Shown here: positions 3,001 to 19,525 of the stretch, piece after piece | Position numbering within the stretch: the first letter of the stretch is position 1 | Layout of the letters: each line of letters starts with the position of its first letter | From: an uncultured Acidimicrobiales bacterium | GTDB taxonomy: Bacteria > Actinomycetota > Acidimicrobiia > Acidimicrobiales > CAVXTF01 | Reading direction: 5' to 3' | Assembly (NCBI GenBank): GCA_963701375.1 | Contig: CAVOZT010000005.1 | Span: 277,744 to 341,743 of the forward strand | DNA: 64,000 bases | Translations under genes and position numbers: made by a program | The notes under the pieces: generated by a model | The model's input: only the letters and a program-made list of their open reading frames with translations | What the model was told of the DNA's origin: nothing | The model's database searches: none

Positions 3001-6000
3001 TAGGTGGCCGCGGTGGTGGTCGTGCCGCCCACAGCCGGAATTGTCTCGGTAGCGAGAACGTTGCCGGTCGGGCCAAGCGTGGACCAGGTTGCCGTCAGAT
3101 TCGGAGCCACCTTCTCAGACACGCCTAGCGTCGCCGGGTCATACACGTAACTCGTTGTCGCCGCGGTCGAGGACCCGTATCCGGCGGTGACCGCGGTCAT
3201 AAGCCCATAGGTAAAGGTGTATTGGGTCTCGTGAGTGATCCCGTTGACCGGCGGAGCGGAAACCAGCGTCACATTCTGATTTGGAGCTGGAGATGAATAG
3301 GAATAGGTCGTCTGCCGCGGCAGCGGGTCGGTCACACTCATAACTTTGAACGCCAAGTAGTTGTACTGCGTAAGAGAAGTCTTGTTGTCCTTGTCGCTTT
3401 CGGTTAGCAGTTCATGGTGGCTGTCGTACGTGTAATACACCGAGTTACCGGCAAGATCCTGCACTCGCTTCAAATTGCCGGAGGCATCGTAAAAGTAGTA
3501 CACGACCTGGCCAATTGGATCCTCTATCTGACTGATGTTGTTCCCACTCCATGTTATCGTGAGCGTTCTCGACGATGGATCGGTGATCATCGAAAGCTGT
3601 CCGCTTGTGTTGTAAGTAAACGATGTCGAGTTGTGATTGCGGTCAGACTCCGAGGTGAGTTGGCCTCCCGAGTTGAACGTGTACATGTATCCGTCCCACC
3701 GTTTATATGTCCAGTTCCCGCCCGATGTCGTGAGAGTGGATGCGTTGTATGTTGGAGGTGTCCACGTCGATCCCATTAGGTTGAAAGTGACAGGAGCACT
3801 GGTCTCGTCTGTGATGGTCACGGCGGTCTTGGCACTGTTCTCGACGAGCTTCGTGCCGGTCGCCCCGACAACGACCGCGGACGTCCGGCATGCAGCACCC
3901 ACCCCTGGCGGTGGGCACGGAGCCGCGGTGCCGCCAGGAATCGTCGAAGACCAACCCCACCCGAACGGCCCGTCTATCGCGGACAATCCGGGTTGGTTGG
4001 GCGCTCCTCCGGGCGGAACCAGGGCGCCTGACGGGATAGACCAGCTCCCGTTGTACTGCTCGACGAGCGTTTGGTACGGAGTCGTTGTGTAGTCGCCGAT
4101 CGCCCAGCAGTTCGAGGACGATACGCAAGCGATGCCGTTCAGATCGTTTCTTTGGGAAGGACCGGTGTTGGGCGAGGGGACAATCGTCCACGATGAGCCG
4201 TTGTACTGTTCGATCAGCGTCTGGTCGGAGGATGCTTTCGTAGCGCTGCTGTAGCCGGCGGCCGAGCAATTCGTTGCCGACACGCAAGTCACGGCGTTGA
4301 GGAAGTTGTCCTGAGACGAGCTGGTGTTAAGTGGAAGAGCGAGGGTCCAGCTTGTCCCGTTGTACTGCTCGGCAAGGGTCTGATTGTGAGTTCCGTTGTA
4401 GTAGTACCCCGCTGCGACGCAGTTCGTTGACGAGACGCATGACACACCGTTGAGGTAGTTATCCTGCGTGGAACTAGTGTTTGCTGACCCGAAAAGGCTC
4501 CAACTCCCGTTGTAATGCTCGATGAGAGTCTGATAGTGACTCCCGCTCTGGTAGTATCCGGTCGCCCAGCACTCGGCTGACGGCGTACACGTGACTCCGA
4601 AAAGGAAGTTATCTTCGGTGCTGCCCATGTTGGGTGAGGTAACGATGGTCCAGTTGGTGCCGTTGTACTGTTCGATCAGCGTCTGGTGGTATGACCCAGA
4701 CAGGTAATATCCAACCGCCCAACAGTTGGCTGATGACATGCAGGAAATGCCGTCCAAATAATTGTGCTGGGTGCCACTCTTGTTGGGCGAAGTGAATTTG
4801 GTCCAGCTCGTTCCGTCGTAGTGCTCGATAAGCGTTTGATACTGAGTACCGGCGTAGTAGTACCCCGCAGCCCAACAGTCGATCGAGGAGTCGCACGATA
4901 CGCTATTCAAATAATTATTCTGGGAGGGACTAGTGTTGTCCGACGGAACGATGCTCCAGCTTGTCCCGTTGTACTGTTCGATAAGTGTTTGGTCGTAGCC
5001 TCCCAAATAGTAGTAACCCACCGCCCAGCAGTCGATCGACGAGACGCATGTGGTGGCGGCAAGCCCGTTGTCAGTACCCGCAGTCTGCTGGGGCGAATTG
5101 TATGTCCGAGTCACATTGAGACCAAAGCCGCGACCCGGGACCGCGATGTCCGTTGCCTGCCGATAGAGCACACCAGAATTTACGTTGACCGAGCCGATAA
5201 TGTTCGACGAGGCATCGGGTGACGAAGTGGACGCGTCGCCAATAGCGGAGGAGGCAGACCAGTCCGACTGCGCAACGGTGGTTGGGAGTGGACTTTGATA
5301 GGTGGCCTGATACCAACCCGCGACATCGATTATGACATCGGCCGGAGCGGAGGCATAGATTCGAATTTTCCCATCTGCGCCGATGGGGACAACGGCATCG
5401 AAGCTTGCGATTGCGGAACCGTAAAAGATTTGATCGGCCGTCGAAGGCGGAGCGGCGCCGTCCGGCCACACAATGACAAGCCCAGGCGCCGATGGTGCAA
5501 CGATGGTGACATTTATGGCTACCGCGGTGATTTGCGAAGCTGGCGGAAGACCACTCGGAACTCCACTCCCCGTGACGATCGGATAGGCGATCGAATCTGC
5601 TGATGCGTCTGATCCACCCGGCAGCTTGTTTCCGGAGCAATTGAATCCGCTCGTGCTCGTGTCGCAGGCTCGGTTTACGACTGAAGGAAAGAAGGGTGAA
5701 CCCGCGGGAGTTCAACGCCGTCCCGTCTGTGGTCCATGCGTTCTCCTCGACGACGAGGTTCATGGCACCAGTTACGGACAGATCGACTTCTCCATTACTG
5801 CTATTGACCGGGACGATTACTCGGTTCATTATGTAGTTCGTACCGGTGGCGTTGACATTCGATACTCCGGGTGGCGCTGTGCAGGACGGCGCGCCACAAT
5901 CAGGAAAGACAACTACTATCCCACTTCCACTCGTTGGAAGAGCAGTTACGTCAAGCACCACCGCTTGTACGCCCGAGGAGGGAACACCAACTAGCCCGGT

Positions 6001-8067
6001 CGCCTGGATCTTCAGCGTGGAGCCGGCTGCAAGGACGCCGACGCTGTTGCACTGAGCCTGCGCGCCAGACAAGTTAGAGGGATTTCCTGCTCTTGTATCG
6101 CAGATGCGTTTGGAAGGGGATAAAGCGTTCATCAATCCTGCTGAACTTGCAAGCGGCGTCGTGGGGATATAGCCCTCAAGATCGATCACAAGGTCGGTTG
6201 ACCCGAAGGGCGCCATGCTGTTGTAGACATTGATCGCCCCTGGGATGCCGATGGGTCCTTGACCGAGCGGCACTTCTACGAGATTCGCCACGTCGTTGCC
6301 GGCCGGGAAGTTGTCATTGGAGCCGACGTGTGAAGAAGGGTCATACGCCACGCCAGAGGGAGTTAAGCTAAGTACACCGTCATAAGTCGCGTTTGTGTCC
6401 GTTACATTGACCACTGCCGCTGCGGCATTGATTGGCACTCCGTCATTGTTGTAACCGCCGACTTGAACGGAGGGGGCGGTGTTCGCAGCGATGGCATTGT
6501 CGCTGCTGCTGTAGTTGTTGCACTGGTTGGCCGGCGTGCCCGCTCCCCGAGTGTCGCAGATCCGCACGGGCGTAGCGAGGGGTACATAGGGGCCCGCGTT
6601 TACAAAGAGAAAGGCGCCGGAGGGGCCAGTAGGACTCGTCCCGTGACCAGAGACGGTAACCGTAACGTACACCTCACCTGGGACTTCTGCTGGTGTCGCG
6701 ACCTGCAAGGAGGTGGAGGAGATCACATTCGGAGCCGATGGGCTCGGTGCGGCCCCGAAAGTCACGGTCGTGCTTCCGCCAACGAAATTAGTCCCAGTAA
6801 TAGTGATGATCCCTCCACCCGAGGTTGGTGCAGACTGCGGCGCAACCGCGGCTACCGTCGGCGTGGAAGCCGTAGCGACTACTACCTGGTTGAGTTGCGA
6901 AGACGTGCTCGATCCGTAGTTGCCATCGCCACTGTAGTCGGCCGTGATGGGGAACGTTCCCTGGTTCGGGAAGGTGGTTGTGCATGTCGCTTGGCCAGTA
7001 GCTGAGTTAACCGGAACGGCTCCGCAACCGGCGATCGCGTTCGTTCCGTTGTCGAAGGCAACCGTACCGCTTGGGTTGGATATCGCGGTTTCCCACACCC
7101 ATTGCACTTGGTCCGCGATGGTGTAATGACAGTAGCCATCGTATGGGTGCGTATCGTTCTGGTCTGTAAGAGTGACCACGTACTGTGCGCCCTTGTTGAA
7201 AGGCAGGACGCCAGTGATGTTCGTATAGTTGTTATTGGCGTACGCTTGCTGGTTGAACCCAGCGTTGGTGCCGGAGCCGCCAGCGTAGCTGTAGTTGTAG
7301 ACGGCCCCGGGATTGTAGGCGGTCCAGTACGGGATGTAGACGAAGATGGCGTAGTTGCCGGTCTTCGGGATTGTCACTGTGTAGGTGAATGTCGAGCCCG
7401 ACAATCCCGCAGACCCGCATTCCGGTTCAGTTCCACTGTAGTAGAAGCCATTTGAAGACGTTCCCACACTGCCACAGGAGGGGTCGGGAGGATTCGTGTT
7501 GGAGAAGGTTGGCTGACTGTCACAGCCATTCGCAAAGCCGAAATTGACGCCGCCGGTACCAGTCCCAGTGAAGGATGTCCCCGGCGAGTTTAGGTTTTGA
7601 TTCGGACCAGCCTCAAGCGGAGCAGGATTCGGAAGCGTGCTGATATTGGCCGTGTAAGTAACTTGGTTGCCTGCTACCACGGGATTAGCGGAGGAACTCA
7701 ACGTTGTGGTGGTTGGGTCGTCACCGGCCACCGTGCTGCTTCTTCCATGCGCGCTTTGCATGAGATGGCCCGACGGTGACGGACTTGGCTTTGACGCTGA
7801 CGCGCTCGCCTTCGGCAAAGTTGCGCTCGCCTGTGATGCAGAAGAGAGGGTGCCGAGAAGAATGAGTACTCCAAGCAATGAGCCGTAGAGGCGACGAGAA
7901 CGAACAATCCGGACCCGAGTTGTTACGAAATGCCACAGGGTCCCGCGAGGAGCGTTTGCCGTGCCACGACTCGTTTGCAGCTTCTGTGGTTGGCCGCCGG
8001 GGGGACGGTCGGGATTAGCGGGAAAATTCGGCACTTTCCACGAGCTCTTCTTCGCAACGAAGCGCAT
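1..8067 (-). CDS. Giant secreted RHS/YD-repeat polymorphic toxin-type protein (3'-partial; one frameshift at ~5707)
   Basis: ORF 5071..8178 gives the N-terminus: signal peptide RRLYGSLLGVLILLGTLSSASQASA, Ig-like, IPT/TIG and PxRxCDTR repeats. Removing one base near 5707 joins it to a frame open down to position 1, encoding DUF6531-like, YD repeats and the RHS core LLYAGQYFDSESTLYYLRARYYDPTTAQLMTVDP...PINQTDPSGL (DPSGL at 279-293). Start codon uncertain. Confidence 0.9.
4030..5070 (-). repeat. Seven ~50-aa Cys-containing beta-propeller-type repeats inside the RHS protein
   Basis: Seven copies of CxSxxxCWAxGYY...QTLIEQYNGTSW read by hand in the RHS frame. Confidence 0.85.
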
Positions 8068-8644
8068 CGCACCCGCCTTTCTCCGTCGAACCCGGAGGGC
8101 GATAGGCCCGTCGGGCTCTGCGATCGGCTTAGCACTGTCACGGCGGTTCGTCCAGTGTGACCGACCAACCCGAACCAAGAAGTTGCCGAATCAGCGCCGT
8201 ATGGGTCACGCCCCGTGATCAGTCCGGCAGGTGAAGATGCTGGTTGTCGATTGACGTTTCGCGAGCCGAGGATGCGATGCTTGCGGACGCACGAATATCT
8301 CGGACGAGCGTGGTTGTTCGTCGCCGAACCATCCTCAGCTCACAGTCTCATTTGTTCAAGCGTGGTGGGGGTGGGTGATGCCTCGCTTATGAGAGGCGAG
8401 CCAACTCCAGCTGGAGAGCGCTCCGGTCAATCATGGGCTTCCTGTATGGTGCCACAGCAGCGGTTACGACCCGTTGCGGAATACCACTGGGCGTAAGAGG
8501 CAAGCCGCCAACCAACAAAAAGAGGTCTTCGATATAATCTTCGAGATGCTTCGTGGGAACAGACAGCTTCCCATTAACGCATGATTAGATGAGAAAGGTG
8601 GCGCTCTTGAGATCGAAGGCGTCACACATGGAGGGCTGTTTTGG

Positions 8645-8698
8645 GAGCAGCTGTTTCGTAAACAGCCGGTCGTCAGTTCGAATCTGACCGTCGGCTCC
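8645..8698 (+). tRNA. 5'-truncated tRNA-Thr(CGT) fragment, probable att core
   Basis: Anticodon arm GCTGT-TTCGTAA-ACAGC, T-arm GTCAG-TTCGAAT-CTGAC and 3' acceptor GTCGGCT-CC; no complementary GCCGAC 5' strand upstream. Directly precedes an integrase. Confidence 0.8.
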
Positions 8699-8865
8699 GC
8701 AGCGCAACGCTGACCCACACGAATACAAATTCAACACTTTTCGAGTTTGTGCGACCCGTGCAAAAGCTGTGCACGAGTCACAGCACAGCTTCCCCTAAAG
8801 GGCGGAATCGCCAAGACAGCCGCCCATACTTGTTGTATCAACACCATTTGCTAAGGGTCAGCACC

Positions 8866-9804
8866 ATGAGTGTTCGTGTCGTCTCTGATGCGCCTCGCAC
8901 GACGCCAATCGAACGGCTCGTCGAGGACTACCTAACCAACTGCGCTGCGCGGGGTCTTTCGCCACGCAGCTTTGACAAAGCCTACGGTTACCCGCTGCAC
9001 GCCATCTTCCTTCCGTGGTGTCGATCCGAGGGGATCGAGCACGTTAGAGAACTGGACCGACGAGCAGTGGACCGTTTCAACACATCGCTGCTCCTACATA
9101 GGAAGGTCGACGGGCAGCCGTTGTCCAAGTACTCCGTCCATGCGTACGTCCGCCCGGTGCGCCAGATGCTCGGTTGGGCTAGCGAGCTGGGCGAAGAGGT
9201 CTCTGCCAAACCGGCACTCCCCCGCCGAGAGAAGCCGATACGGGACGTGCTGTCGAGGGAGGAGATCGATCGACTCGAGTCAGTTCTGCCAACCGAACGC
9301 GATCGATTGATCATTCGTATCTTCGGTGACTGCGGACTACGACTCGATGAACTCACCAAGCTCGCAACCGGCGACATCGTCCGTTCCGGTCGTCACGCGT
9401 ACATCCGAGTACTCGGCAAGCGCAGTCGAGTGCGGGACGTTCCGGTCCTGCCCGTTCTGCTGCGAAGACTGGAGCGCCATATCGAACGTCTTCCCGCCGA
9501 CCGGACGGAGGATCGCATCTTTGTCTCGACACGTCGATCGAGGTCGGGCGTGTACGAGCCGCTAACGGATAGCGGTGTCTACAAGGTTGTGACTGATGCA
9601 GTTGCAAGGGCCGGCATGAGCAAGCACGTTCATCCGCACATCCTCCGGCACTCTTGGATGACGGAGATGCTGCGAAACGGGATGAACCCGATCCAGCTGT
9701 CCATCATCGCCGGGGCGTCCCCCGAAGTGATCGCCCAGTGCTACACGCACCTCACCAAGGACGACGCCTACGACGCAATGGTGCGAGTCCTGAGTGGTAG
9801 ATAG
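8866..9804 (+). CDS. Tyrosine recombinase/integrase (short, Xer-like)
   Basis: GLRLDE (R), GKR (K), HILRH and CYTH (Y) motifs; likely start ATG at 8866. Confidence 0.9.
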   Translation: MSVRVVSDAPRTTPIERLVEDYLTNCAARGLSPRSFDKAYGYPLHAIFLPWCRSEGIEHVRELDRRAVDRFNTSLLLHRKVDGQPLSKYSVHAYVRPVRQMLGWASELGEEVSAKPALPRREKPIRDVLSREEIDRLESVLPTERDRLIIRIFGDCGLRLDELTKLATGDIVRSGRHAYIRVLGKRSRVRDVPVLPVLLRRLERHIERLPADRTEDRIFVSTRRSRSGVYEPLTDSGVYKVVTDAVARAGMSKHVHPHILRHSWMTEMLRNGMNPIQLSIIAGASPEVIAQCYTHLTKDDAYDAMVRVLSGR

Positions 9805-9890
9805 GCGCTGAACCGGAGCCAGTGGGTCCAGAGGTTCAACATTCCCCAAAGTGCTTGCTCAGACGCCTACCACCGATTCCTCGGTCCAGG

Positions 9891-11525
9891 CTAGACGTCT
9901 TCCTGCTGGTCGAAATCAGCCTCGGGTTCCTCTGGTTCGGGGTGCAGTGGCTCGGCCCGATGGTCTTCCGAGGGTGATGCCGGTTCAGTCTCCGTAGCCT
10001 CAGAGGATTCCCCTGCCTGGGCCTTGCCCGCATCTCCAGGGGACTCCTCGGGTTCAACTTCACTCTCCTCAGGTTCGACACGGGTTTGCTGCTCTGGCGG
10101 TGGACCCGGAGTAACAGTTACGACCACTGGCGAGGCGCCAGTTCGATTCTGCAACAAGAGTTGGAACGTTGGCGTAGTTGAGCTGTGTTGCAACGCCTCC
10201 ACTCCGGTAAAGCCAAGCTTTCTGAGAAGGCACATCTCTAACAGTGCAATGCACTCGTAACTGAGCAACCAAAGCTCTTGTCCTGAGGCAGCTTTCGACT
10301 CCAAGTTCGGGTTGAAGTGAGTTAGATAGTTGCGCGTGTCTCCCGTCACCTTTACGAAGTCGTCTCGAAGCAACGGGAGGATCTCGTCGCCAACAAAGTC
10401 CAACATCTGCCGCAGACGCTGTTTTAGCGTTGGTTCATTGCTGAAGTTGAGTTTCTCTTTGAGCCAAGGGCGAAGGGTCTCGTCCTCGACGTCGTCGACA
10501 ATTGAAGCGACACGTGCCTTATGTTCTTCTTCTGGCAAGACGCCGTCTGGCCACTCTTTGCGATGGAAGAGTTCAAGTGCTTGGGCTGCAAACAGAAAGC
10601 GAGAGTCTAGATAGAGCCCGATACCGAGGGAAATTGCAAAGAGAAGGCTCATCGAGTGCTCTTGCTGTGTGTGCAACACATCCCACGCCTGCAGCACTGC
10701 TCCCAACCGATCACGAATGGTTGCAAGTGGGAGTCGCATTTGTGTAGGTGACTTCGCACCCGATGGACTCCGCCAGCCTACGTATCCAACTTCAATTTTT
10801 TGAGCCAGCCACTTGCTTCCAACTTGCCTACCGAGACCCTCGACGTTGACGGAGAGACTAAGCAGGTGGGTTGGAACACCGCACGCAAACGTCATGAACC
10901 GTTGCATTGGTATGGCGAACGACGACAGCAGTTGACCGATGTTCGACTGCTGATCGGGAGTGAACTCTATTTGAGCAGAGCGTTCGTACGTGAGTGTGTT
11001 TAGCCGGTTGTGTTGCATCGATAAATAGGCGATCTTCAGGGTGCCACCGAAGGCGCTCCCGCTGGGGCCGTCCGGAAGGTCTCTGGTTAGAACGATGGAT
11101 CCGTCAGGTCGGGTTTCAGTGACGATGGGTTGATCGGGAGCGGCCCATTCATCGATGTGTTCGAATCGCAACTGAATTTCTGAAAGTGCAGTTTCTTCCC
11201 CGTCGGGAAGGTGTGCCCCCCGAAAGATGAAATGAGGATGCAGATCCAAAGGGATCGTGCCAGTACCACGAAATGCAACTGTGGTGCGACCAACCTCGAC
11301 CGACGTAAGGGTAACGGGGGAACCGCTTTCCAACACTCCGAAGATCACCTTGTATCCCGGATGCGCCGTGATTAGTGGGGCAAAGGTTTGGAAGTCTTCG
11401 AATGGGTTGAGGATTGTGAGCGTAATCCCACTATCTTCATGACCGAATGTGAGGTTGCCAGACCGGGCCGCGTCGGGACGATCGGGAAGCCAGAAATAGC
11501 CGAGTTCTTTCGAGAACGGTTGCAT
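9891..11525 (-). CDS. apeA: ApeA-family HEPN nuclease (ApeA N-terminal domain + HEPN), candidate anti-phage protein
   Basis: N-terminal GYFWLP...GNLTF...GITLTI typical of ApeA NTD; HEPN RxxxxH motif RNYLTH; acidic C-terminal tail. Confidence 0.75.
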   Translation of the reverse strand: MQPFSKELGYFWLPDRPDAARSGNLTFGHEDSGITLTILNPFEDFQTFAPLITAHPGYKVIFGVLESGSPVTLTSVEVGRTTVAFRGTGTIPLDLHPHFIFRGAHLPDGEETALSEIQLRFEHIDEWAAPDQPIVTETRPDGSIVLTRDLPDGPSGSAFGGTLKIAYLSMQHNRLNTLTYERSAQIEFTPDQQSNIGQLLSSFAIPMQRFMTFACGVPTHLLSLSVNVEGLGRQVGSKWLAQKIEVGYVGWRSPSGAKSPTQMRLPLATIRDRLGAVLQAWDVLHTQQEHSMSLLFAISLGIGLYLDSRFLFAAQALELFHRKEWPDGVLPEEEHKARVASIVDDVEDETLRPWLKEKLNFSNEPTLKQRLRQMLDFVGDEILPLLRDDFVKVTGDTRNYLTHFNPNLESKAASGQELWLLSYECIALLEMCLLRKLGFTGVEALQHSSTTPTFQLLLQNRTGASPVVVTVTPGPPPEQQTRVEPEESEVEPEESPGDAGKAQAGESSEATETEPASPSEDHRAEPLHPEPEEPEADFDQQEDV

Positions 11526-11567
11526 TAGCCGATTGTGAGAGTAGCGATAGTGGGGATGTACATGAGG

Positions 11568-11705
11568 TCAGCCGTCGTTGGACGTTGTTCGGTCTTCTTC
11601 GGCAGACTGCGGCGACAACTCCAACAAACGGTTCAGTGCTGCTTTCGGAACGAGGATACGCCGTTCGATACGCATGGACGGAATCTCACCTCTCTCAACG
11701 CCCTC
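11568..11705 (-). pseudogene. Excisionase (HTH_17) C-terminal remnant
   Basis: ERGEIPSMRIERRILVPKAALNRLL matches the intact xis at 17529; the N-terminal HTH helix is absent. Confidence 0.7.
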
Positions 11706-11795
11706 GCCGTCAAAGACCTCGACCCCGACGGCTGCTCGAACTTTGGCCACGGGTGTCGGTCGCAGCCGAGTGCGAGCGTGATGACGGAAGCTGGA

Positions 11796-12188
11796 TCATC
11801 GTTGTGACGTACCGTAAACAGCGAGTCCTGGACCGTCATACCGTGTCTCAAACTCTTCACGTCTATCCTGATCCGCCATAAGACTAGTGGCTCGTTCAAT
11901 CACTTCGCGGCCAACCTGAAGCGTTCCTTCGGGGAGCACACCAGACTTCAACATTCGAAGAAGCCATTGTCCAATCGCGTACTCGAGCGCTCTTTGGGCG
12001 ACATACTCGTCTGCACCTATCCGCCAGCCCCGTAAGAAATGTTGCGCATCACTGGCGTCCACGAGGAGCAGTCCAGTCGTCAACCGCTCATGGTTTCGCT
12101 CGACTTCAATCTCGACGGTCCAGTTAGCCGTTGGCGTGGCCACCGCCCACTCGCCCAGTTTCGAAACTTGGTACAAGCCTGGCTTCAC
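11796..12188 (-). CDS. Hypothetical protein
   Basis: 130-aa ORF with protein-like composition and no recognised motif. Confidence 0.45.
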   Translation of the reverse strand: MKPGLYQVSKLGEWAVATPTANWTVEIEVERNHERLTTGLLLVDASDAQHFLRGWRIGADEYVAQRALEYAIGQWLLRMLKSGVLPEGTLQVGREVIERATSLMADQDRREEFETRYDGPGLAVYGTSQR

Positions 12189-12250
12189 GTTGAATCACAC
12201 TAGGGGAAATCGGGGTCCGCCCGGCCCGGCTGGTAGAGAGGGAGGTCCGT

Positions 12251-12446
12251 ATGAGCAAGCACGTTCATCCGCAACATCCTGCGGCACTCTTGGATGACGG
12301 AGATGCTGCGAGACGGGATGACCTCGATCCAGCTGTCCATCACCGCCGGGGCGTCGCCCGAAGTGATCGCCCAGTGCTATACGCACCTCACGAAGGACGA
12401 CGCCTACGACGCGATGGTTCGGGTCCTTTCGGGAGGGGGACGGTAG
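12251..12446 (+). pseudogene. Duplicated 3' end of the 8866..9804 integrase
   Basis: Near-identical to 9616..9800 (atgagcaagcacgttcatccgca...gacgacgcctacgacgc), with an extra base and several substitutions. Confidence 0.9.
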
Positions 12447-12502
12447 AGGCAGGGAAATTTTCGAGGACACCGCCCATAGGTGTGGGCGTACAGTCGGTCA
12501 GC

Positions 12503-13187
12503 AATGGCAGGGAACGACTTAGGACCCTGGGAGCCGCTCGGTCTTGAGGAAGTGAGACACCTGTTCGCCCGGTTTCCGGCACGCTGGTGGATCACTGGCG
12601 GTCAGGCGCTGGAGCTTCATCTGGGTCGCTGCTGGCGAACTCATGCCGACACCGACGTGAGCGTGCTGCGAGAAGACAGTTCAGAGCTGCTACACGTACT
12701 GGTCGAGTGGGACATCAATGTTGCCGCTGCTGGTGCCCTTTCGCCCTGGGATGGATCCACCCCCACGGTTGACGCCGAGCAGAACAACTTGTGGTGCCGA
12801 ATGGCAAAAGGTCAACCGTGGTGCATTGACGTCACCATCAGCGATGGAAACCAGGAATTTTGGATCTACCGACGTGATCCGACAGTCCAAGTGCGTTGGG
12901 ACGAGGCTGTCCTGACGAACGAACGTGGTATCCCGTACCTCGCTCCGGAGCTTCAACTTCTCTTCAAGAGCAACAGGGTCCGGCGGAAGGACGAACTGGA
13001 TGCGGCAGAAGTGATTCCGGAACTAAGCGAGGCTCGACGACTTCGACTTCGCAGTTACCTGCCCGGCGACCATCCCTGGCACGCCTTAATGGACTCGGTG
13101 ATGAGATCCTTACGAACTGGTGGCGCCTTGGCAAGGACGAGGATGGTCGCCACCGCCTCGGCCTCACTGCCCGTCAGTGCGCATTGA
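12503..13187 (+). CDS. Nucleotidyltransferase (aminoglycoside-2''-adenylyltransferase-like fold)
   Basis: WWITGGQALELHLG...RTHADTD pol-beta GG...DxD signature; YLAPELQLLFK. Confidence 0.75.
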
Positions 13188-13245
13188 GTGACCCGGACCG
13201 AGTTCGGCGATTCAGCCCCGATCTGACCAGGTCAGCGGGGTCGTG

Positions 13246-13268
13246 TCGAACACGTGTTCGTGTAGACT
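13246..13268 (+). promoter_or_regulatory. LexA (SOS) box next to a -10 element, upstream of the ubiquitin-like operon
   Basis: TCGAAC-ACGT-GTTCGT (13246-13261) against the actinobacterial consensus TCGAAC-N4-GTTCGA; TAGACT -10 at 13263-13268. Confidence 0.75.
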
Positions 13269-13315
13269 TGGGAGCCAGCGGGGCCGCCCACCTGTCGGCC
13301 CAGGGAGGATTCGAG

Positions 13316-13588
13316 ATGTCGACTGTAGAGAATGAGGCGGGCGGACCGGCGGGATTTGAGATCATCGTCGACACAGTTCCGCACGCCGTGCACGACGCCC
13401 GCGTGACGTGGACGCAGGTCGTGGAAATCGCTTACCCAGGTCAGTCCGAAGATCCGAAGTATGTGTTCAAGGTCCAGTATGAGGACGCCGCGAGCCAACC
13501 GAAATCGGGCACGCTCGTGAAAGGCGATCATGTAGAAGTCGAGCGGACTGGGACGACTTTTAGTGTCCTTCGATCCCTGGTCTCGTAG
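13316..13588 (+). CDS. Multiubiquitin-family ubiquitin-like protein
   Basis: RBS GGAGG then ATG 13316; FEIIVD...VTWTQVVEIAY...FKVQY...GTLVKGDHVEV...FSV fits the Multi_ubiq beta-grasp pattern. Confidence 0.8.
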   Translation: MSTVENEAGGPAGFEIIVDTVPHAVHDARVTWTQVVEIAYPGQSEDPKYVFKVQYEDAASQPKSGTLVKGDHVEVERTGTTFSVLRSLVS

Positions 13589-14747
13589 TCCTGACCTAGC
13601 GAGGCTGATCGAAGCGGGTTATGAGCTGGAGTTAACCGGAGACGGTTATCTGCTCGTTCACAATGTCCCGTATCTGAACGAACAACGTTCGATTCAGCAG
13701 GGAACGCTCGTCGCCAAGCTGGAAATGAACGGTGACGCGACGGTCAATCCGGTACAAGATCACGTCGCGTTTTTCATGGGCTCAACTCCGTATCGGTGGA
13801 ACGGCGAACAGGTGCGGCCTCTCGCGGTGACCAATCTTGCCATTGCTGATGGTCGAGTTGCCCACTTTCAAATGTCGCTCAAGCCTCCATCGGCCCAGTT
13901 CTATCCCGACAACTTCGAAAAGGTCGAGTACCACGTACAGAACATCGAAGAAGAAGCGAAGCATCTCGATTCGAGTGTGACCTCGAAGACATTTGGTCCA
14001 TGCATCATCAACAGCGATGAGTGGCCCTTCGAATACGCCGATACCGCCAGCGGGCGAGCGGGCATTGGCGCAATCAATGGACGTCTCGCCGGGCAAAAGA
14101 TCGCAATTGTTGGGCTTGGCGGCACCGGCTCGTACATCCTGGATCTTGTTGCGAAATGCCCCGTTGCCGAGATCCATCTCTATGACGGCGACGTATTCTC
14201 CAGTCATAACGCCTTCCGCTCTCCGGGTGCGGCAAGCCTGGATGAGGTTCGAAGAGGCAGGCTGAAGGTCGAGCGATACACAGAGGTCTATTCGAATCTG
14301 AAGCGAAAGATCACGCCGCATCCTTACAACATCGACGGTACGAACGCTTGCGAACTTGCTCCATACGACTTCATCTTCCTGTCCATGGAAGGCGGAGCGA
14401 CAAAGCTTGCCATCGTCGAAGCACTGGAGAACATGGGCAAGCCCTTTGTCAATGCAAGCATGGGAGTAAAGAAGCCAGGGAGCGGCGAGCAACTACAAGC
14501 GAAAGTTGAAGTGAATGGAAGTACTGTCGACAAGCGTGAGAGCTTCCGGCAGCAGGTTAACTTCGGCGAGATTGATCCGGACGATCCGTACCTGGAAAAC
14601 ATCCAAGTCGCCGAACTCAACGCACTCAACGCGGCGATGGCCGTTCTCTGGTGGAAGAAATGGGCGGGGGTGTACGTGAGCAACAAACTTCCATACTGGA
14701 TGATGCTCGACACGTATCTCGATGGCTTCTACACGGATCGCGCGTAA
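13563..14747 (+). CDS. DUF6791-ThiF (E1-like adenylyltransferase) fusion
   Basis: N-terminal SPDLARLIEAGYE...LLVHNVPY...DHVAFF (DUF6791-like); ThiF motifs IAIVGLGGTGS and DGD...HNAFRSPG. Confidence 0.85.
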   Translation: MSFDPWSRSPDLARLIEAGYELELTGDGYLLVHNVPYLNEQRSIQQGTLVAKLEMNGDATVNPVQDHVAFFMGSTPYRWNGEQVRPLAVTNLAIADGRVAHFQMSLKPPSAQFYPDNFEKVEYHVQNIEEEAKHLDSSVTSKTFGPCIINSDEWPFEYADTASGRAGIGAINGRLAGQKIAIVGLGGTGSYILDLVAKCPVAEIHLYDGDVFSSHNAFRSPGAASLDEVRRGRLKVERYTEVYSNLKRKITPHPYNIDGTNACELAPYDFIFLSMEGGATKLAIVEALENMGKPFVNASMGVKKPGSGEQLQAKVEVNGSTVDKRESFRQQVNFGEIDPDDPYLENIQVAELNALNAAMAVLWWKKWAGVYVSNKLPYWMMLDTYLDGFYTDRA

Positions 14748-15154
14748 TGCCCAAGATCACTGAAGTCAGCTACTCATTCGTCGACTCGGCACCCGAAACG
14801 CTGGAGCCTGGAAGGCTCTACATTTCGATCAAGTACCGTGCAATCGTCCACCTCTGTCTTTGCGGATGCAATGAAAAGGTCCTCTTGAAGCTCGGCCCAG
14901 CCCCGGAGTATTGGAGCTTCACGTTCGACGGCCGATCCATCTCAATTCACGATTCCGTTGGAAATGTTGGCCTGCCTTGTCGGTCTCATTACATCGTCAC
15001 CAGAAACCGGGTCAAGTGGCTGCCGGCACTTGTTGACATCGACCCGAAGATGGCTCTCGAAGGCAGGCCCCCTTACGAGCAGGTCGAAGAAGAGGTTAGA
15101 CACGGATGGTTCGGAAGGCGGTTCCCGCGGCGTCGCAGACGTTCGAAGAAATAG
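14747..15154 (+). CDS. DUF6527 family protein (Cys/His metal-binding)
   Basis: LEPGRLYIS...HLCLCGC...W...SVGN...PCRSHY...W; TAATG stop/start coupling to the ThiF gene. Confidence 0.85.
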   Translation: MPKITEVSYSFVDSAPETLEPGRLYISIKYRAIVHLCLCGCNEKVLLKLGPAPEYWSFTFDGRSISIHDSVGNVGLPCRSHYIVTRNRVKWLPALVDIDPKMALEGRPPYEQVEEEVRHGWFGRRFPRRRRRSKK

Positions 15155-15214
15155 TCAGCACCGACTCGCACAGCACGATCCCCGACGACAATTCCCACCA
15201 CCTACCGCTCCGGG

Positions 15215-15290
15215 TCCAGTGCGCCAACGCTACCCGCCGCACCGAGGTCTCCTTCGACCGATCCGGATGGCTGGGATCTCCCCATGCTTG
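15215..15290 (-). pseudogene. Second excisionase remnant
   Basis: 15251-15283 matches 17598-17630 at 32/33 nt and encodes GEIPAIRIGRR. Confidence 0.75.
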
Positions 15291-15299
15291 ATCGATGAC

Positions 15300-16175
15300 C
15301 TATCCATCCATACTGTCGAAGAGGTGTTGGATGTAAGAAGTGCAGATCACCGTGATGCGATCCTCCGGCATTACTTCGCGAAGTGCTCGATGTGCCATAG
15401 CGACTCCGGCTCCACTGCGGGAACCAAAGAGATCTCGCAGATAGTCGAGACCGAGCCGGACTGATTCTTCTACCAGCGAGTTAGCCAAGAGATTGCGGAT
15501 TGTCTCAGCGACATCGGCGGGATCGATGGCCTGCATTAAGCGCAGCACGTCCGATGCGTCTTTGTCGTCGTAGCGATTCTGTTTTCCGGAGGCAACGCGC
15601 TCGGCAATCTTGTAGGCCTTCGCGATGAAAAGTGCGGCCGGGCCGGCGACCTCGGCACCTATCGAACGGCCGTCTTCAGGATCAAGTGCCGAAATCGTCA
15701 TCGTGTTGTGATCAATCAATGCGGCTTCAAGTCCAGCGACCTTGCGAGCCGCCTGCTTCCCGTGGACTCCAAGACGTACTCCGCGGTGACTATCCTTCGG
15801 AATTGACGCTTCGGGAACTAGCAAATCAAGAGGCACGACATTGACTTGTCCTTCAATTACAACGTTTCTGTACCAGGCGCCAGGCTGAACGTGACCTGCA
15901 GGATTTCGCTGAAGGTCGAAGTCAGCACCTCTCAATGCGTCTTCGAGCGCTGGATCATCGCCCAGGTATGAGGGATCAAGCGCAAGGTCTCCATCGGTAG
16001 TGAAGGGTGCGATCGCAATGGTCGGATCGACGTCTCCAGTATGGAGGTAAATGGCTTGTGCGCCTACGACGATAAACGCTTGACCATGAGGCTCTAGGGC
16101 GAACAAAGCGTCGAGCAGGACGCGTCGAGCTTCCAAATAAGGGGGATCAACACCCTGATACAACGAGTCAGTCAT
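15300..16175 (-). CDS. AbiEii-like nucleotidyltransferase toxin (type IV TA)
   Basis: VVGAQAIYL...TTDGD...LDLLVP...LFIAKAYK...KDASD; overlaps the upstream regulator gene. Confidence 0.75.
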   Translation of the reverse strand: MTDSLYQGVDPPYLEARRVLLDALFALEPHGQAFIVVGAQAIYLHTGDVDPTIAIAPFTTDGDLALDPSYLGDDPALEDALRGADFDLQRNPAGHVQPGAWYRNVVIEGQVNVVPLDLLVPEASIPKDSHRGVRLGVHGKQAARKVAGLEAALIDHNTMTISALDPEDGRSIGAEVAGPAALFIAKAYKIAERVASGKQNRYDDKDASDVLRLMQAIDPADVAETIRNLLANSLVEESVRLGLDYLRDLFGSRSGAGVAMAHRALREVMPEDRITVICTSYIQHLFDSMDG

Positions 16176-17299
16176 TGTCGCTCTCTTGACGTAGCAGATT
16201 CAAAGAGTCAATCCGCCAGTCTGCCTGGTTGTCGAGCATCCAAGACATGAGAGCATCGCCTTCAGCAGGCATGCGTCCGTTACCGGTCAAGCAATCGACA
16301 GCGACTTGCGAGACGCTCGCATATCTGATCCCGTTGACGATCCGGGTCCGGTCCCATACGACCTCATCATATGGCCGCAAGAAAATCACATTCGTTCCCT
16401 CGTCAGATGGCAGTAAGCGCGATTCGATGCCAGCACTCTCGAGATCAGAGCTGTATGCGACAAGCAATGCGGGAGCAGCGACGGCTGCGAACTTGACAGC
16501 CGCAAATGATCCCGTAACGGCATAGCGGTTGTTCGCGGCCGACAGCTGCGAGAGAAGCTGTGCCGCTCCCTTCGGTGCTACAAAGCGAAACGCCGTATTG
16601 GTTTTGAACAGGTCATAAGACTCTGCCCAGCGTTGCAGAAGTCCCTTGATGTCGACTCGTTCAACACGCCCGCGTTTGGAACGGTCGACAAGTGCCTCAT
16701 CATCAAGCGTCTCAAGGAGTTTGGAGACGTATCCAGGATTGAGTTTTGTAACTGTCGCTATTTCTCGAACTCCGTACGGTGGCGTGACATCGAGCAACAG
16801 ACGCACCAGTCGTGCCGCTCTTGGGCCTCGGAGCCTTGATGGAGAACGCGGGGGCGGTGACGGATCGCGAGGCACCACTCGATTGGATAAAGAGTGTGGG
16901 GTAATCAAGTTTGACAAGCGCATTGCCGGTGAGGTCGATGTAGTTGATGCTGTCCTTAGTGAGCAATTCCCTTGTACGTGGGCTTAGCCACGGAGCGACT
17001 ACGAGTAGCGGCACGTTTCCTGCGAGGGTGCGTAGTACACGGGAGACTCCGGGAAGGATGCGCTCGACGTCCCTTGGGGTAAAGGTTCGCTTCGCTTCAA
17101 CGGCCAGGGTCACTTGGATGCCCTGGATGCCTTGGATGTCGATGGCGCCATCGACCAGCTGTTGTGGCTCGGCAAAATTGCCGCCCGACACGACCCGGTT
17201 TGACTTGGCGACGGTCCAGGAGGCAGGGAGGCGGTCCTGAAGCCAGGCAACGGCAGCGTCCGTGAGGTCGGTTTCCTGTAGCAGACTGTTTGCTGTCAT
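16168..17299 (-). CDS. AbiEi-like antitoxin/transcriptional regulator (frameshift at ~16866)
   Basis: ORFs 16712..17299 and 16168..16923 join by one base: VEAKR...PWLSPRTRELL...YIDLTGN, winged HTH GVREIA...GYVSKLL, YAVTGSFAA, QVAVDCL...GR. Confidence 0.75.
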
Positions 17300-17322
17300 A
17301 ACAATTTGGACTATAGCGGGAA

Positions 17323-17381
17323 ATGTTTGCCGATTCGACCATGTTTGCGAGGACAGGAAACATAGGAAGATCAGGAAACAT
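17323..17381. promoter_or_regulatory. Nested palindromic operator upstream of the AbiE-like operon
   Basis: ATGTTT at 17323 and 17341, AAACAT ending at 17363 and 17381; both pairs are centred on 17352. Confidence 0.6.
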
Positions 17382-17528
17382 TGCCAACTCCCGATGGCCT
17401 GCCACTATTCTCCCAGCTCAGGAGGCCCAACTGCCGGGCAGGGTGCCCCTGCCCAACGGGATCCCTCGTGTGTGGCGCGGTGGCCGCTGCCCGAACGTGT
17501 ATTCCTCAGGCTGCGACTCTTTGGAGAC

Positions 17529-17760
17529 TTACTCGGGCTGGCTCTCTGGCCCAGCTGACGATAGGAACCGCTCCAGCGCAGCCCTAGGGACGAGGATCCT
17601 TCGGCCGATCCGGATGGCTGGGATCTCCCCCCGCCTCACAGCCTCGTATGCACCTGCCCGACTGATTCCAAGGGAAGCAGCTGCCTCTTCAACGGTGAGT
17701 GTGAGTCTGTCGATTCCTTCGGAAATCGCCCCGGAAGCAATGCGATTAGAACCTGGCGTT
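17529..17760 (-). CDS. Excisionase-family HTH_17 DNA-binding protein
   Basis: RLTLTVEEAAASLGISRAGAYEAVRRGEIPAIRIGRRILVPRAAL; start uncertain (the ORF extends to 18011). Confidence 0.85.
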
Positions 17761-18077
17761 GGCGCTTGTGCGATAAGAGCGTCCGCAAGGACGGCCTCGT
17801 TCGACGCCCAGTAAGAGGGGTTCGAGACTAAGGCAACCTCCGGTGCCCCGACCGTCGACGCGCTGCCCGGATCATTGACGACTTTGAGGCCAGTGGGCTG
17901 ACGACTGGTAGTCGCAAGCAACAAAGCGAGTTGTTGGACTCGCCCGTTCCAAGCGCTTGGGTTGACGATTGTTGCAACGTCCTCTGGCAGGTCCGAGTCG
18001 TCTTCGTGCATTGTTGAGAACGCTACTTATGATGCGAGCAGTCGGCCGGTGTCGGGCGGCTCGCTCTGGGGTGGACC

Positions 18078-18340: not shown

Positions 18341-19525
18341 GTGCGCGATTGGCGGTCCGGTTCAGTTCGTGAGCGCCGCCCGGGCGTGTGGGAGATCCGG
18401 ATCACGGTAGCCACCGACCCCGTGAACGGTCGGGCGATCCAGCGCTCCTTCACCTTCCGAGGGGACCGTCCAAGCGCCGTTGTGCAGTGCACCGAGCTGG
18501 CCGCCGATTACTCGTCGCGGCGCGTCGCTGCACAGGGAGCGCCCTTCCTCACCGTGATCGAGGTGCTGGACGGTTGGCTCTCATCTGATCATGACTGGCG
18601 GCCGTCGACTTGGTCGAGTTACCGGTCCAACGTTCGTGCGTTGCAGTCCGATCCCATCGGAGAACTACGAGTGGCGCGTCTTGACCCGGCGATCATGCGG
18701 GCACAGATGGGCGAATGGCGAGCTGCGGGAGCGACGCCGTCGGTGATGTCCGGACGGTTCCGGACCCTGAGGGCGGCTTTGAGCTGGGCCTACGAGAATC
18801 GGATAATCGACCGAAACCCGATCGACGGCATGAAGGGCCCTCCCCGCCCTCAACCCCGCCTTCACGCAACTGGCGTCGAGGTCCTTCGGTTGCTTCGCCA
18901 CGCCGAGCAAGTACTGGAGAAGGTCCAGGTGGGTTCAACCCGATCGGCCGGAGAGCTGAGGCACCTCGAGCGGTCCGAGCAGATGCTGCTTCTTATTCGC
19001 CTGGCCGCTGACAGCGGAGCCCGCAGGGGCGAACTTGCCGCTCTTAAGATCAAGGATCTCGAGGGCCGAGTGCTCCACATCGTCCGAGCGGTGTCGATGG
19101 AGCACGTAGGTCCCACCAAGACTGGGCGCACGCGGCGCCTCACGCTAGGCGCCACGACCGCCTCGCTATGGCATGACCTCGTGGCCACCTGGGAGTCGCG
19201 CCTCACCGACGGCCAAGTCTTGGGTGACTGGCTGTTCGCCGCAGATACCGCCCACCGACAGCGCCTGACCACGTCGCATCTGGCACATCTCTTTAGCCGG
19301 ACGCGAGTCGACGCCCGAGTACCAGGCGTGACGCTTCACCGCTTGCGACACAGCGTCGCCACATTCCTCGTCGAACGAGGTGAAATCCTGAAAGCGCAAC
19401 AACGACTCGGGCACAAGGACCCGTCCACCACGCTTCGGAATTACGCCCATGCAATGCCTCTACAAGACGAAGATATCGCCGACGCGCTCGACGCAGCCCT
19501 CGGCGCGGCCGAAAGTGAATTGTAG
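18341..19525 (+). CDS. Tyrosine integrase (actinobacterial integrative-element type)
   Basis: N-terminal GSVRERRPGVWEIRI...DPVNG; GARRGE, PTKT, HRLRH, LGH and NYAH catalytic motifs. Confidence 0.92.
   Translation: MRDWRSGSVRERRPGVWEIRITVATDPVNGRAIQRSFTFRGDRPSAVVQCTELAADYSSRRVAAQGAPFLTVIEVLDGWLSSDHDWRPSTWSSYRSNVRALQSDPIGELRVARLDPAIMRAQMGEWRAAGATPSVMSGRFRTLRAALSWAYENRIIDRNPIDGMKGPPRPQPRLHATGVEVLRLLRHAEQVLEKVQVGSTRSAGELRHLERSEQMLLLIRLAADSGARRGELAALKIKDLEGRVLHIVRAVSMEHVGPTKTGRTRRLTLGATTASLWHDLVATWESRLTDGQVLGDWLFAADTAHRQRLTTSHLAHLFSRTRVDARVPGVTLHRLRHSVATFLVERGEILKAQQRLGHKDPSTTLRNYAHAMPLQDEDIADALDAALGAAESEL

What the first reader, a model, noticed from the sequence alone, without database searches (positions are those of the whole stretch)
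13246..15154. SOS-box-controlled bacterial ubiquitin-like operon (Ubl / DUF6791-ThiF / DUF6527)
Seen: three overlapping or coupled genes; TCGAAC-ACGT-GTTCGT lies 1 bp upstream of a TAGACT -10 and about 55 bp before the Ubl start. Known: this matches the actinobacterial LexA operator; Ubl/E1 operons such as Bil and CBASS Cap2 act in phage defence, whereas DUF6527-type operons have no function I know to be established. Inference: a DNA-damage-inducible protein-conjugation system carried as mobile defence cargo, perhaps armed during prophage induction or phage-caused DNA damage. Best candidate for an undescribed system in the window.
Basis: partly seen in the sequence, partly recalled or inferred. 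Interest (0 to 1): 0.85.

Follow-up and report, generated by a model that had tools for sequence, protein, structure and literature searches.

The report
LexA-controlled Type II Bub operon
This is an intact copy of an already described bacterial ubiquitin-like conjugation operon (Type II "Bub"), whose promoter here carries the host's own DNA-damage (LexA/SOS) operator instead of one of the dedicated regulators reported for this family.

Summary
Three coupled genes at 13316-15154 encode a Multi_ubiq Ubl, a DUF6791+ThiF protein and a DUF6527 protein. TCGAACACGTGTTCGT sits at 13246-13261, one base before TAGACT and 54 nt before the Ubl ATG.

The system is not undescribed. It is a Type II Bub operon (BubA, E2-E1 fusion BubBD, protease BubE; formerly "6E/DUF6527"), characterised biochemically in 2024. 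All published catalytic residues are present.

The LexA reading is well supported in silico. The genome is actinobacterial (five WhiB genes) and has one lexA. CGAAC-RNNY-GTTCG occurs 13 times, including at lexA (three), recA, uvrA, a uvrD-like gene and ruvC. The ruvC 16-mer is identical to the Bub one.

In 5 of 9 close relatives, only the box and the -10 survive in otherwise unalignable upstream DNA. One box-less relative has a CapH+CapP-like pair instead and another a lone divergent HTH gene. Two distant actinobacterial Bub operons also carry the box.

Verdict: a known system with a new regulatory wiring. No binding or induction data exist, and Bub's biological role remains unknown.

The parts
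13246..13261 (.). LexA (SOS) operator, TCGAACACGTGTTCGT; palindromic core CGAAC-ACGT-GTTCG
   Evidence: Sequence. Strict-core match. The 16-mer is identical to the one over the ruvC start in the same genome (L010:2359-2374). The same core lies at the same distance from bubBD in L099, L100, L101, L102 and L107.
13263..13268 (+). -10-like hexamer TAGACT (fits TANNNT, a consensus recalled from memory), directly abutting the operator
   Evidence: Sequence. TAGACT or TAAGCT is conserved next to the box in L107, L099 and L101, and box-G-TAGACT occurs in distant L059. No transcription start data exist. An E. coli-type promoter scan found nothing in this region.
13303..13309 (+). Ribosome-binding site GGGAGGA, 6 nt before the ATG
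   Evidence: Sequence. An AGGAG-type stretch is aligned in the relatives.
13316..13588 (+). bubA: ubiquitin-like protein with a single beta-grasp domain, 90 aa, ending ...SLVS
   Evidence: Pfam Multi_ubiq PF14452, E 3.9e-12. Homologues lie upstream of bubBD in 90 of 166 loci by tblastn.
13563..14747 (+). bubBD: E2-like (DUF6791) plus E1 adenylation (ThiF) fusion, 394 aa. Key residues H67, S105 and K107 (E2 site), R219 (adenylation), Y343 (crossover loop).
   Evidence: Pfam DUF6791 E 1.1e-36 and ThiF E 2.7e-11. These residues are invariant in the 25-sequence alignment A1. They match S106, R219 and Y342 of E. coli BubBD in the paper.
14747..15154 (+). bubE: DUF6527 zinc-finger Ser/His protease, 135 aa. 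Zinc ligands C37, C39, C41, C78; dyad S70 and H81.
   Evidence: Pfam DUF6527 E 5.8e-18. These residues are 99-100% conserved in a 151-sequence alignment. The pattern matches the C4 zinc finger plus Ser/His dyad described in the paper.

Best explanation
[quoted passage not shown] It sits in a mosaic mobile or defence island of a soil actinobacterium, and its promoter is repressed directly by the host LexA protein. Inferred sequence of events follows. In undamaged cells a LexA dimer sits on the operator at 13246-13261. The operator fills the spacer next to the -10 hexamer and would block RNA polymerase. DNA damage, including damage or RecA activation caused by phage infection or prophage induction, leads to LexA self-cleavage and transcription of the three translationally coupled genes. 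By homology to the published system, BubBD then adenylates the BubA C-terminus (R219) and carries it as an oxyester on Y343. It passes BubA to S105 of its own E2-like domain and conjugates it to lysines of targets that are still unknown. BubE (S70/H81, with a C4 zinc site) cleaves such conjugates. Shown here: gene identity, intact catalytic residues, operator identity with genuine SOS genes of the same genome, and conservation of the operator in relatives. Inferred: LexA binding, induction, conjugation activity, the targets, and any anti-phage effect.
For: System identity: Pfam domains are. The operon architecture and naming come from passages of bioRxiv 10.1101/2024.11.21.623953. H67, S105, K107, R219 and Y343 are invariant in alignment A1. 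BubE residues C37, C39, C41, C78, S70 and H81 are at least 99% conserved in 151 sequences.

Host SOS system: the genome has one lexA, scoring 212 bits against a cut-off of 111. It has five WhiB genes, a family that in the 14 control genomes matched only Corynebacterium. There are 13 CGAAC-RNNY-GTTCG sites in 4.36 Mb. Three lie upstream of lexA and one lies 161 nt upstream of recA. One lies 22 nt before uvrA, one at the start of a UvrD-family helicase gene, and a perfect 16-mer lies between a TetR gene and a radical-SAM/SPL-like gene. One lies over the ruvC start codon, and its 16-mer is identical to the Bub site. Only 1 of the 13 lies deep inside a long ORF. Of the 8 non-RNNY copies, 5 lie well inside called ORFs, 2 lie near the 5' ends of short, possibly spurious ORFs, and 1 is intergenic.

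Conservation: the box lies 302-316 nt before bubBD in L099, L100, L101, L102 and L107, whose BubBD is 77-80% identical. In the 9-sequence upstream alignment, only the box plus TAGACT and the ribosome-binding site with the ATG align. Across 137 loci with 1 kb of upstream sequence, there are 6 perfect cores upstream and 0 in the first 1 kb of bubBD. Distant actinobacterial operons L059 (42% identical; box-G-TAGACT) and L187 (38%, same order as the host) also carry an RNNY box before bubA. On a FastTree of 164 BubBD sequences, the box needs at least 4 changes of state.

Regulator swap: box-less close relative L105 has a divergent HTH_XRE gene plus a Peptidase_M78 gene, resembling CapH+CapP. L135 has a divergent HTH_XRE gene at its contig end. 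Eleven loci have recognisable relatives of the L105 pair, and none of them has a box. None of the 7 box loci has such a pair. The published Bub regulators CapW, CapH+CapP and CapK+CapS all respond to DNA damage.
Against: There is no binding, transcription-start or induction data of any kind. The bare motif is not rare: 21 copies at spacer 4, against 10-29 at other spacers and 19.5 expected. The box is missing in 4 of 9 evaluable close relatives (L105, L109, L112, L135) and in L106. It is present in only 1 of the 15 loci whose record titles name an actinobacterial taxon and in 1 of 10 same-order genomes with a BubBD homologue. LexA control is therefore a trait of some lineages, not of the family. 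L101 and L102 look like the same sequence sampled twice, so the independent count is nearer 4 of 8. An E. coli-type promoter scan finds no promoter; the -10 assignment rests on a recalled actinobacterial TANNNT consensus. [quoted passage not shown] BubA here ends in Ser, not the Gly described for Type I BubA.
Confidence: 0.75

Rival explanations
1. The operon is a Type II Bub operon, but the palindrome is not a working LexA operator. It could be a chance match, a relic, or the site of another regulator, with expression constitutive or controlled otherwise.
For: The bare arms at spacer 4 are no commoner than at other spacers. The box is absent from 4 of 9 close relatives and from most actinobacterial Bub operons examined. 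No promoter was found by the consensus scan.
Against: The 16-mer is identical to the one at ruvC, and the same motif class sits at lexA, recA, uvrA and a uvrD-like gene. The box and the adjacent -10 are the only conserved upstream elements among relatives whose flanks do not align. The box recurs in two operons only about 40% identical in BubBD. There are 6 boxes upstream against 0 in gene bodies across 137 loci.
Confidence: 0.12
2. LexA control is real, but the operon is a general DNA-damage or stress-response module acting on host proteins, for example in repair, cell division or growth arrest. On this reading it is not an anti-phage system.
For: [quoted passage not shown] Direct membership of the SOS regulon beside recA, ruvC and uvrA fits a damage response.
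Against: The neighbours are mobile or defence genes: an ApeA-HEPN gene matching PDC-S58, an AbiEi-like gene and integrases. The distribution is patchy, with BubBD not found in the 2 same-genus genomes or the 1 same-family genome searched. The related Bil and Type II CBASS systems are defence systems. None of this excludes a stress role. This rival concerns the biological purpose, not the mechanism, and it overlaps the best explanation.
Confidence: 0.35
3. The cassette is a decaying passenger of the island and makes no active pathway.
For: It lies in a mosaic island with a duplicated integrase 3' end and repeat-flanked insertions. One relative, L107, shows bubBD broken into several frames.
Against: All three frames are open and translationally coupled. 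Every catalytic and zinc-binding residue is kept. The ribosome-binding site, start codon and promoter elements are conserved.
Confidence: 0.05

Closest known systems
Type II Bub operon (BubA, BubBD, BubE), e.g. E. coli ZDHYS365; formerly '6E.2 / DUF6527' (Ye et al., bioRxiv 10.1101/2024.11.21.623953; passages read)
   Same: Same three genes in the same order. It has the E2-E1 fusion with a Ser/Lys/His E2 site, an adenylation Arg and a crossover-loop Tyr (S105, K107, H67, R219, Y343 here; S106, R219, Y342 in E. coli). It has a DUF6527 protein with a C4 zinc finger and a Ser/His dyad, and no JAB peptidase. The single-beta-grasp Ubl class is reported for 40% of Bub Ubls.
   Different: No adjacent CapW, CapH+CapP or CapK+CapS genes. 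A host LexA operator lies in the promoter instead. The host is an actinobacterium. BubBD is only about 40-48% identical to the named-genome relatives retrieved.
Bub operons regulated by CapH+CapP, CapW/BrxR or CapK+CapS (168, 43 and 59 of the 544 catalogued operons; a later wider search found 231 Bub operons with capK+capS)
   Same: The input signal is the same: DNA damage de-represses the operon. Box-less close relative L105 of this very clade carries a CapH+CapP-like pair.
   Different: Those operons carry a dedicated repressor with its own sensor protease, WYL domain or kinase. Here no regulator gene is carried, and the cassette borrows the host's RecA/LexA circuit through a 16-bp site.
Core SOS regulon of the same genome (lexA, recA, uvrA, uvrD-like, ruvCAB)
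   Same: Same operator class, CGAAC-RNNY-GTTCG, placed at or just before the gene start. The 16-mer is identical to that at ruvC.
   Different: Those are chromosomal repair genes. This is accessory cargo in a region of lower G+C: 55-59% over window 1-18000, against 63-66% for the six genome contigs.
Type I Bub, Bil (BilABCD) and Type II CBASS Cap2 conjugation systems
   Same: A ubiquitin-like or E1/E2-type conjugation logic, found in mobile or defence contexts.
   Different: Type I Bub has a Ubl-E2 fusion and a JAB-E1 fusion. Bil has separate cysteine-based E1 and E2 proteins plus a JAB deubiquitinase. Cap2 conjugates a CD-NTase. None of these features is present here. PADLOC E1-E2 models hit only the ThiF core, weakly (best E 1.8e-7).

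Membership tests
Type II Bub operon | Separate Ubl gene (BubA) with a beta-grasp domain at the head of the operon | tested here: met
   Pfam Multi_ubiq, E 3.9e-12, residues 14-86 of 90. The fold itself was not modelled.
Type II Bub operon | E2-E1 fusion protein (BubBD) | tested here: met
   DUF6791 over residues 10-161 plus ThiF over residues 174-300 in one 394-aa protein.
Type II Bub operon | E2 site with an invariant Ser accompanied by Lys and His, instead of Cys | tested here: met
   H67, S105 and K107 are invariant in the 25-sequence alignment. The paper gives S106 in E. coli BubBD, with invariant Lys and His.
Type II Bub operon | E1 adenylation Arg and an invariant crossover-loop Tyr, with no crossover-loop Cys | tested here: met
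   R219 and Y343 are invariant, against R219 and Y342 in the paper. By my reading of the sequence there is no Cys between about residues 300 and 345.
Type II Bub operon | DUF6527 protein (BubE) with a C4 zinc finger and a Ser/His dyad | tested here: met
   PF20137, E 5.8e-18. C37, C39, C41, C78, S70 and H81 are 99-100% conserved in 151 sequences.
Type II Bub operon | No JAB/JAMM peptidase in the operon | tested here: met
   The operon has only three genes. Pfam scans of the neighbours show no JAB domain.
Type II Bub operon | ATP-dependent Ubl conjugation through oxyester intermediates | not testable with these tools
   Requires biochemistry.
LexA (SOS) regulon of the host | Operator matching the lineage's LexA box | tested here: met
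   Eleven of the 12 specified positions of TCGAAC-N4-GTTCGA match, and the strict core matches. The consensus itself is recalled from memory but is validated on this genome's own SOS genes.
LexA (SOS) regulon of the host | Host encodes LexA, and the same motif lies at canonical SOS genes | tested here: met
   lexA. Sites at lexA (three), recA, uvrA, a uvrD-like gene and ruvC.
LexA (SOS) regulon of the host | Operator overlaps the promoter | tested here: inconclusive
   The box abuts a conserved TAGACT. There are no transcription-start data, and the consensus scan found no sigma-70-type promoter.
LexA (SOS) regulon of the host | Operator conserved in orthologous promoters | tested here: met
   Present in 5 of 9 evaluable close relatives, as a footprint in unalignable flanks, plus L059 and L187. 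It is not universal.
LexA (SOS) regulon of the host | LexA binding and recA-dependent induction | not testable with these tools
   Needs EMSA or ChIP and reporter or RNA data.
CapH+CapP / CapW / CapK+CapS-regulated Bub | Regulator genes adjacent to the operon promoter | tested here: not met
   The upstream gene is a nucleotidyltransferase-like ORF. No HTH+M78, WYL or STAS/GHKL genes appear among the neighbours. tblastn with the L105 pair finds nothing in the window locus.
Bil (BilABCD) | Separate cysteine E1 with tandem adenylation domains, a separate E2, and a JAB deubiquitinase | tested here: not met
   Domain content; family definition.

The most novel reading that the evidence does not exclude
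Some actinobacterial Type II Bub operons have dropped dedicated regulators and are plugged directly into the host SOS regulon through a LexA operator. This happened in at least three BubBD lineages that are only about 40% identical to one another. Some sister operons use a CapH+CapP-like pair instead. If so, DNA damage sensed through RecA* would be the general physiological trigger of Bub conjugation. These LexA-box operons would then be the simplest handle for finding Bub's unknown targets: add mitomycin C and look for BubA conjugates, with no phage needed. A side reading also stands. Type II BubA appears to be conjugated through a C-terminal serine rather than glycine, since 143 of 143 loci with the conserved bubA/bubBD overlap end in Ser.
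Probability: 0.6. Interest if true: 0.5.

Novelty: new variant of a known kind. Interest (0 to 1): 0.4.

Why it matters
Bub is a recently characterised ubiquitin-like conjugation pathway with unusual oxyester chemistry. Its targets and purpose are still unknown.

The published clue to its biology is that many Bub operons sit next to DNA-damage-responsive regulators. A lineage that uses the host LexA operator gives independent support to that clue, because it is a different molecular route to the same signal. The recurrence of the box in divergent operons, and its absence from loci with a CapH+CapP-like pair, point the same way.

It also gives a practical route to switching the pathway on with a standard SOS inducer in a culturable actinobacterium. 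It adds an example of mobile defence-island cargo borrowing a host global regulator instead of carrying its own.

The proteins themselves are ordinary members of the family, so the gain is incremental rather than a new kind of system.

Tried and rejected
Lineage-specific LexA boxes in other phyla: I scanned 1 kb upstream of bubBD in 137 loci. CTGT-N8-ACAG occurred once, at -894. GTTC-N7-GTTC occurred 3 times, against 1 in gene bodies. The cyanobacterial pattern did not occur. There is no sign that LexA control is general for Bub. These motif forms are recalled from memory.

Phage carriage: a scan of viral contigs with BubBD gave a single relative at 44% identity. I dropped the idea that the cassette is typically phage-borne.

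Conserved neighbours: tblastn with seven flanking ORFs of the window hit only L109, through the AbiEi-like gene, the 291-aa ORF and the 195-aa ORF. The upstream nucleotidyltransferase-like gene is not part of the system.

Terminator reading of the palindrome: rejected, because no T-run follows it, the scan reports no + strand terminator in 12400-15500, and its one hit is on the - strand near 15431-15452.

tRNA or att borders: there are no tRNA genes in the window. The island borders were not resolved.

Expression: no RNA holder was listed among the sequencing runs. The 4 runs listed are soil-metagenome DNA, with a best share of 0.44.

Taxon name: I could not obtain one. The phylum is inferred from WhiB and from the named homologues.

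Structure and complex prediction, the ESM Atlas and the representative-protein search were not used, because family membership was already clear.

Literature: four searches and term look-ups for 'LexA' and 'SOS' in three Bub-related papers ('SOS' was not among the terms) found no mention of LexA control of Bub. Supplementary tables (Table S1, Datasets EV1 and EV2) were not seen and may list regulator-less or actinobacterial operons. The journal version cited as 'Ye et al, 2026' was not found in the library.

The 5-of-401 tally includes G088, an unpublished genome. No other claim rests on it. Its locus L015 had only 229 nt of upstream sequence and was not evaluated.
Full report
**What is there.** Window 13316-15154 (+) holds three tightly coupled genes.
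- The first is a 90-aa protein with a Multi_ubiq domain (E 3.9e-12).
- The second is a 394-aa protein with DUF6791 (E 1.1e-36) followed by ThiF (E 2.7e-11).
- The third is a 135-aa DUF6527 protein (E 5.8e-18).

Gene 1 and gene 2 overlap by 26 nt. Gene 2 and gene 3 overlap by one base (TAATG). Upstream, TCGAACACGTGTTCGT occupies 13246-13261. It is followed after one base by TAGACT (13263-13268), then GGGAGGA (13303-13309) and the ATG at 13316.

**What the system is.** Full-text search for the two DUF names led to two 2024 preprints from one group and a 2026 EMBO J paper. I read passages of these, not whole texts or supplements.

They define "Bub" (bacterial ubiquitination-like) operons, previously called "6E" or "DUF6527". 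[quoted passage not shown] The reported chemistry is as follows.
[quoted passage not shown] - BubE is a Ser/His protease with a C4 zinc finger that removes conjugates.

In E. coli BubBD the key residues are S106, R219 and Y342, with an invariant Lys and His beside the Ser. In my 25-sequence alignment of the window protein and database homologues, H67, S105, K107, R219 and Y343 are invariant. In a 151-sequence BubE alignment taken from the fetched loci, C37, C39, C41, C78, S70 and H81 are 99-100% conserved.

The window operon is therefore an intact, ordinary Type II Bub operon with a single-domain Ubl. That Ubl class is reported for 40% of Bub Ubls. PADLOC-DB of 2023 has no model for BubA or BubE and only weak Cap2-type hits on the ThiF core. 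This may explain why the operon looks "undescribed" to annotation.

**Is the box a LexA operator?** The genome is 4.36 Mb in 6 contigs, each 63-66% G+C. It encodes one LexA and five WhiB proteins, a family that among the 14 control genomes matched only Corynebacterium. The host is therefore an actinobacterium.

The core CGAAC-N4-GTTCG occurs 21 times. This is no more than other spacer lengths (10-29 copies) or a naive expectation of 19.5, so the motif alone proves little.

However, 13 of the 21 have the purine-N-N-pyrimidine centre, and these sit where SOS operators should.
- Three lie upstream of lexA.
- One lies 161 nt upstream of recA.
- One lies 22 nt before uvrA.
- One lies at the start of a UvrD-family helicase gene.
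- One perfect 16-mer lies before a radical-SAM/SPL-like gene.
- One lies over the start codon of ruvC, which is followed by ruvA and ruvB.

The ruvC 16-mer is identical to the Bub one. Only one of the 13 is deep inside a long ORF. Of the eight copies without the RNNY centre, five lie well inside called ORFs, two lie near the 5' ends of short, possibly spurious ORFs, and one is intergenic. Within the window the strict core occurs twice against 0.11 expected.

**Conservation.** BubBD has thousands of homologues: 6,466 at E <= 1e-10 among the 8,000 candidates scored. About 55 of them are 66-91% identical. I fetched 80 loci from named genomes (best identity 47%) and 80 from metagenomes.

Among close relatives (72-81% identity) with at least 330 nt of upstream sequence, results split as follows.
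- L099, L100, L101, L102 and L107 have the perfect core 302-316 nt before bubBD, against 316 in the window.
- L105, L109, L112 and L135 do not.
- L101 and L102 appear to be the same sequence, so the independent count is about 4 of 8.

The upstream alignment is unalignable except for the box, the adjoining TAGACT or TAAGCT, and the ribosome-binding site with the start codon. That is a classic footprint.

One box-less relative points to a swap of regulator. L105 has a divergent HTH_XRE gene plus a Peptidase_M78 (IrrE-like) gene, matching the CapH+CapP pair described for Bub. L135 has a divergent HTH_XRE gene at its contig end. L109 has a sigma-70-region-4 HTH protein upstream. Eleven loci contain recognisable relatives of the L105 pair and none of them has a box. 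None of the seven box-bearing loci has such a pair.

Two distant operons in actinobacteria also carry the box.
- L059 is from an uncultured Actinomycetes genome and is 42% identical in BubBD. It has box-G-TAGACT, the same architecture as the window.
- L187 is from a genome of the host's own order and is 38% identical. L059 and L187 are 41% identical to each other.

On a FastTree of 164 BubBD sequences the box needs at least four changes of state. This tree has SH-like support only, so the count should be taken as "several".

The box is otherwise rare.
- It occurs in 1 of the 15 loci whose titles name an actinobacterial taxon.
- It occurs in 1 of 10 same-order genomes with a homologue.
- No lineage-specific LexA motifs appear in other phyla.

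**Context.** The operon lies in a stretch of lower G+C: 55-59% over window 1-18000, against 63-66% for the genome contigs. It is surrounded by these features.
- A tyrosine integrase at 8749-9804.
- An ApeA-HEPN protein at 9891-11525, matching PADLOC candidate PDC-S58.
- A nucleotidyltransferase-like ORF at 12480-13187.
- An AbiEi-like gene at 16168-16923, with a 291-aa partner.
- An HTH_17 excisionase-like gene at 17529-18011.
- A second integrase at 18341-19525.

Repeats show that the island is mosaic. The integrase 3' end (9609-9791) is duplicated at 12244-12427. A 34-nt direct repeat brackets the AbiE-like module at 15250-15283 and 17597-17630.

The neighbours are not conserved with the operon in other loci, apart from the AbiE-like module in L109. 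BubBD was not found in the two same-genus genomes or the one same-family genome searched. It occurs in 11 of 401 genomes of the order, counting the host. DUF6527 exceeded its cut-off in 5 of 401 genomes of the phylum, counting the host and the unpublished G088. This is a self-contained, horizontally moving three-gene cassette.

**Mechanism and limits.** The most likely picture has three steps. LexA represses the cassette by binding next to the -10. DNA damage, which phage infection or prophage induction can cause, relieves repression. BubBD then conjugates BubA to unknown targets, and BubE reverses the conjugation.

Only identity, residue conservation, operator class and conservation are shown here. 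Binding, induction, activity, targets and any anti-phage effect are inferred. The family's authors themselves state that phage protection has not been shown. A general stress-response role is a live alternative.

**Novelty.** The proteins are standard. DNA-damage control of Bub through CapW, CapH+CapP and CapK+CapS is published. Direct control through a LexA operator was not mentioned in any passage or search I could make.

I rate this a regulatory variant of a known system. It is useful as independent support for the link between DNA damage and Bub, and as an experimental handle. It is not a new kind of system.

Noticed in passing
window 13563-13588, and 143 of 151 Type II Bub loci (L019-L178): The bubA stop lies 25 nt past the first base of bubBD (a 26-nt overlap) in 143 of 151 loci. 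In all 143 the predicted BubA ends in Ser, usually D/N-K/R-S, not the C-terminal Gly described for Type I BubA. 'C-terminal serine' has 0 occurrences in the preprint's main text.
   Followed up: partly
L099:2599-3543 and L059:2318-3388: A HAD-family hydrolase-like gene lies directly upstream, on the same strand, of the LexA-box Bub operon in two loci. The two proteins are 47% identical (E 2e-104), while the BubBD proteins of L099 and L059 are 80% and 42% identical to the window's. No homologue was found in the other loci or in the host genome.
   Followed up: partly
window 24785-24798: A second strict LexA-type core, CGAACATTCGTTCG, lies in an intergenic region. Read on the - strand it is followed by a TACACT -10-like hexamer and a roughly 22-nt sequence that recurs about 115 nt downstream. 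The downstream 80-aa ORF has no Pfam match.
   Followed up: partly
G000:C5:273722 (about 4 kb before the window start; L012:2223): A LexA-type core lies 57 nt upstream of a Replic_Relax (PF13814) gene. This makes three LexA-type sites within about 29 kb of this accessory region.
   Followed up: no
window 9609-9791 and 12244-12427; 15250-15283 and 17597-17630: The 3' end of the integrase gene is duplicated, in a 30-nt (90%) and an adjoining 154-nt (93%) segment, just upstream of the nucleotidyltransferase-like ORF. A 34-nt direct repeat (97%) brackets the AbiEi-like module. Both are signs of nested insertions.
   Followed up: no
window 3-5471 (-) and 5071-8178 (-): A very large RHS-repeat protein with a DUF6531 domain runs off the window start, with more than 1,822 aa in view. 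Next to it is a 1,035-aa protein with Ig-like, TIG and Golvesin_C domains.
   Followed up: no
window 15300-17299 (-) and L109:154-2177 (-): A three-ORF module (a 291-aa protein with no Pfam match, an AbiEi-like protein, and a 195-aa ORF) lies next to a Bub operon in both the window and L109, at 50-55% identity. It is downstream of the operon in the window and upstream of it in L109.
   Followed up: no
L109:3560-3600: The box-less close relative L109 has a different palindrome, CGGATTC-AAATCCG, where the LexA box would be. A sigma-70-region-4 HTH protein is encoded just upstream. This may be yet another regulator swap.
   Followed up: no
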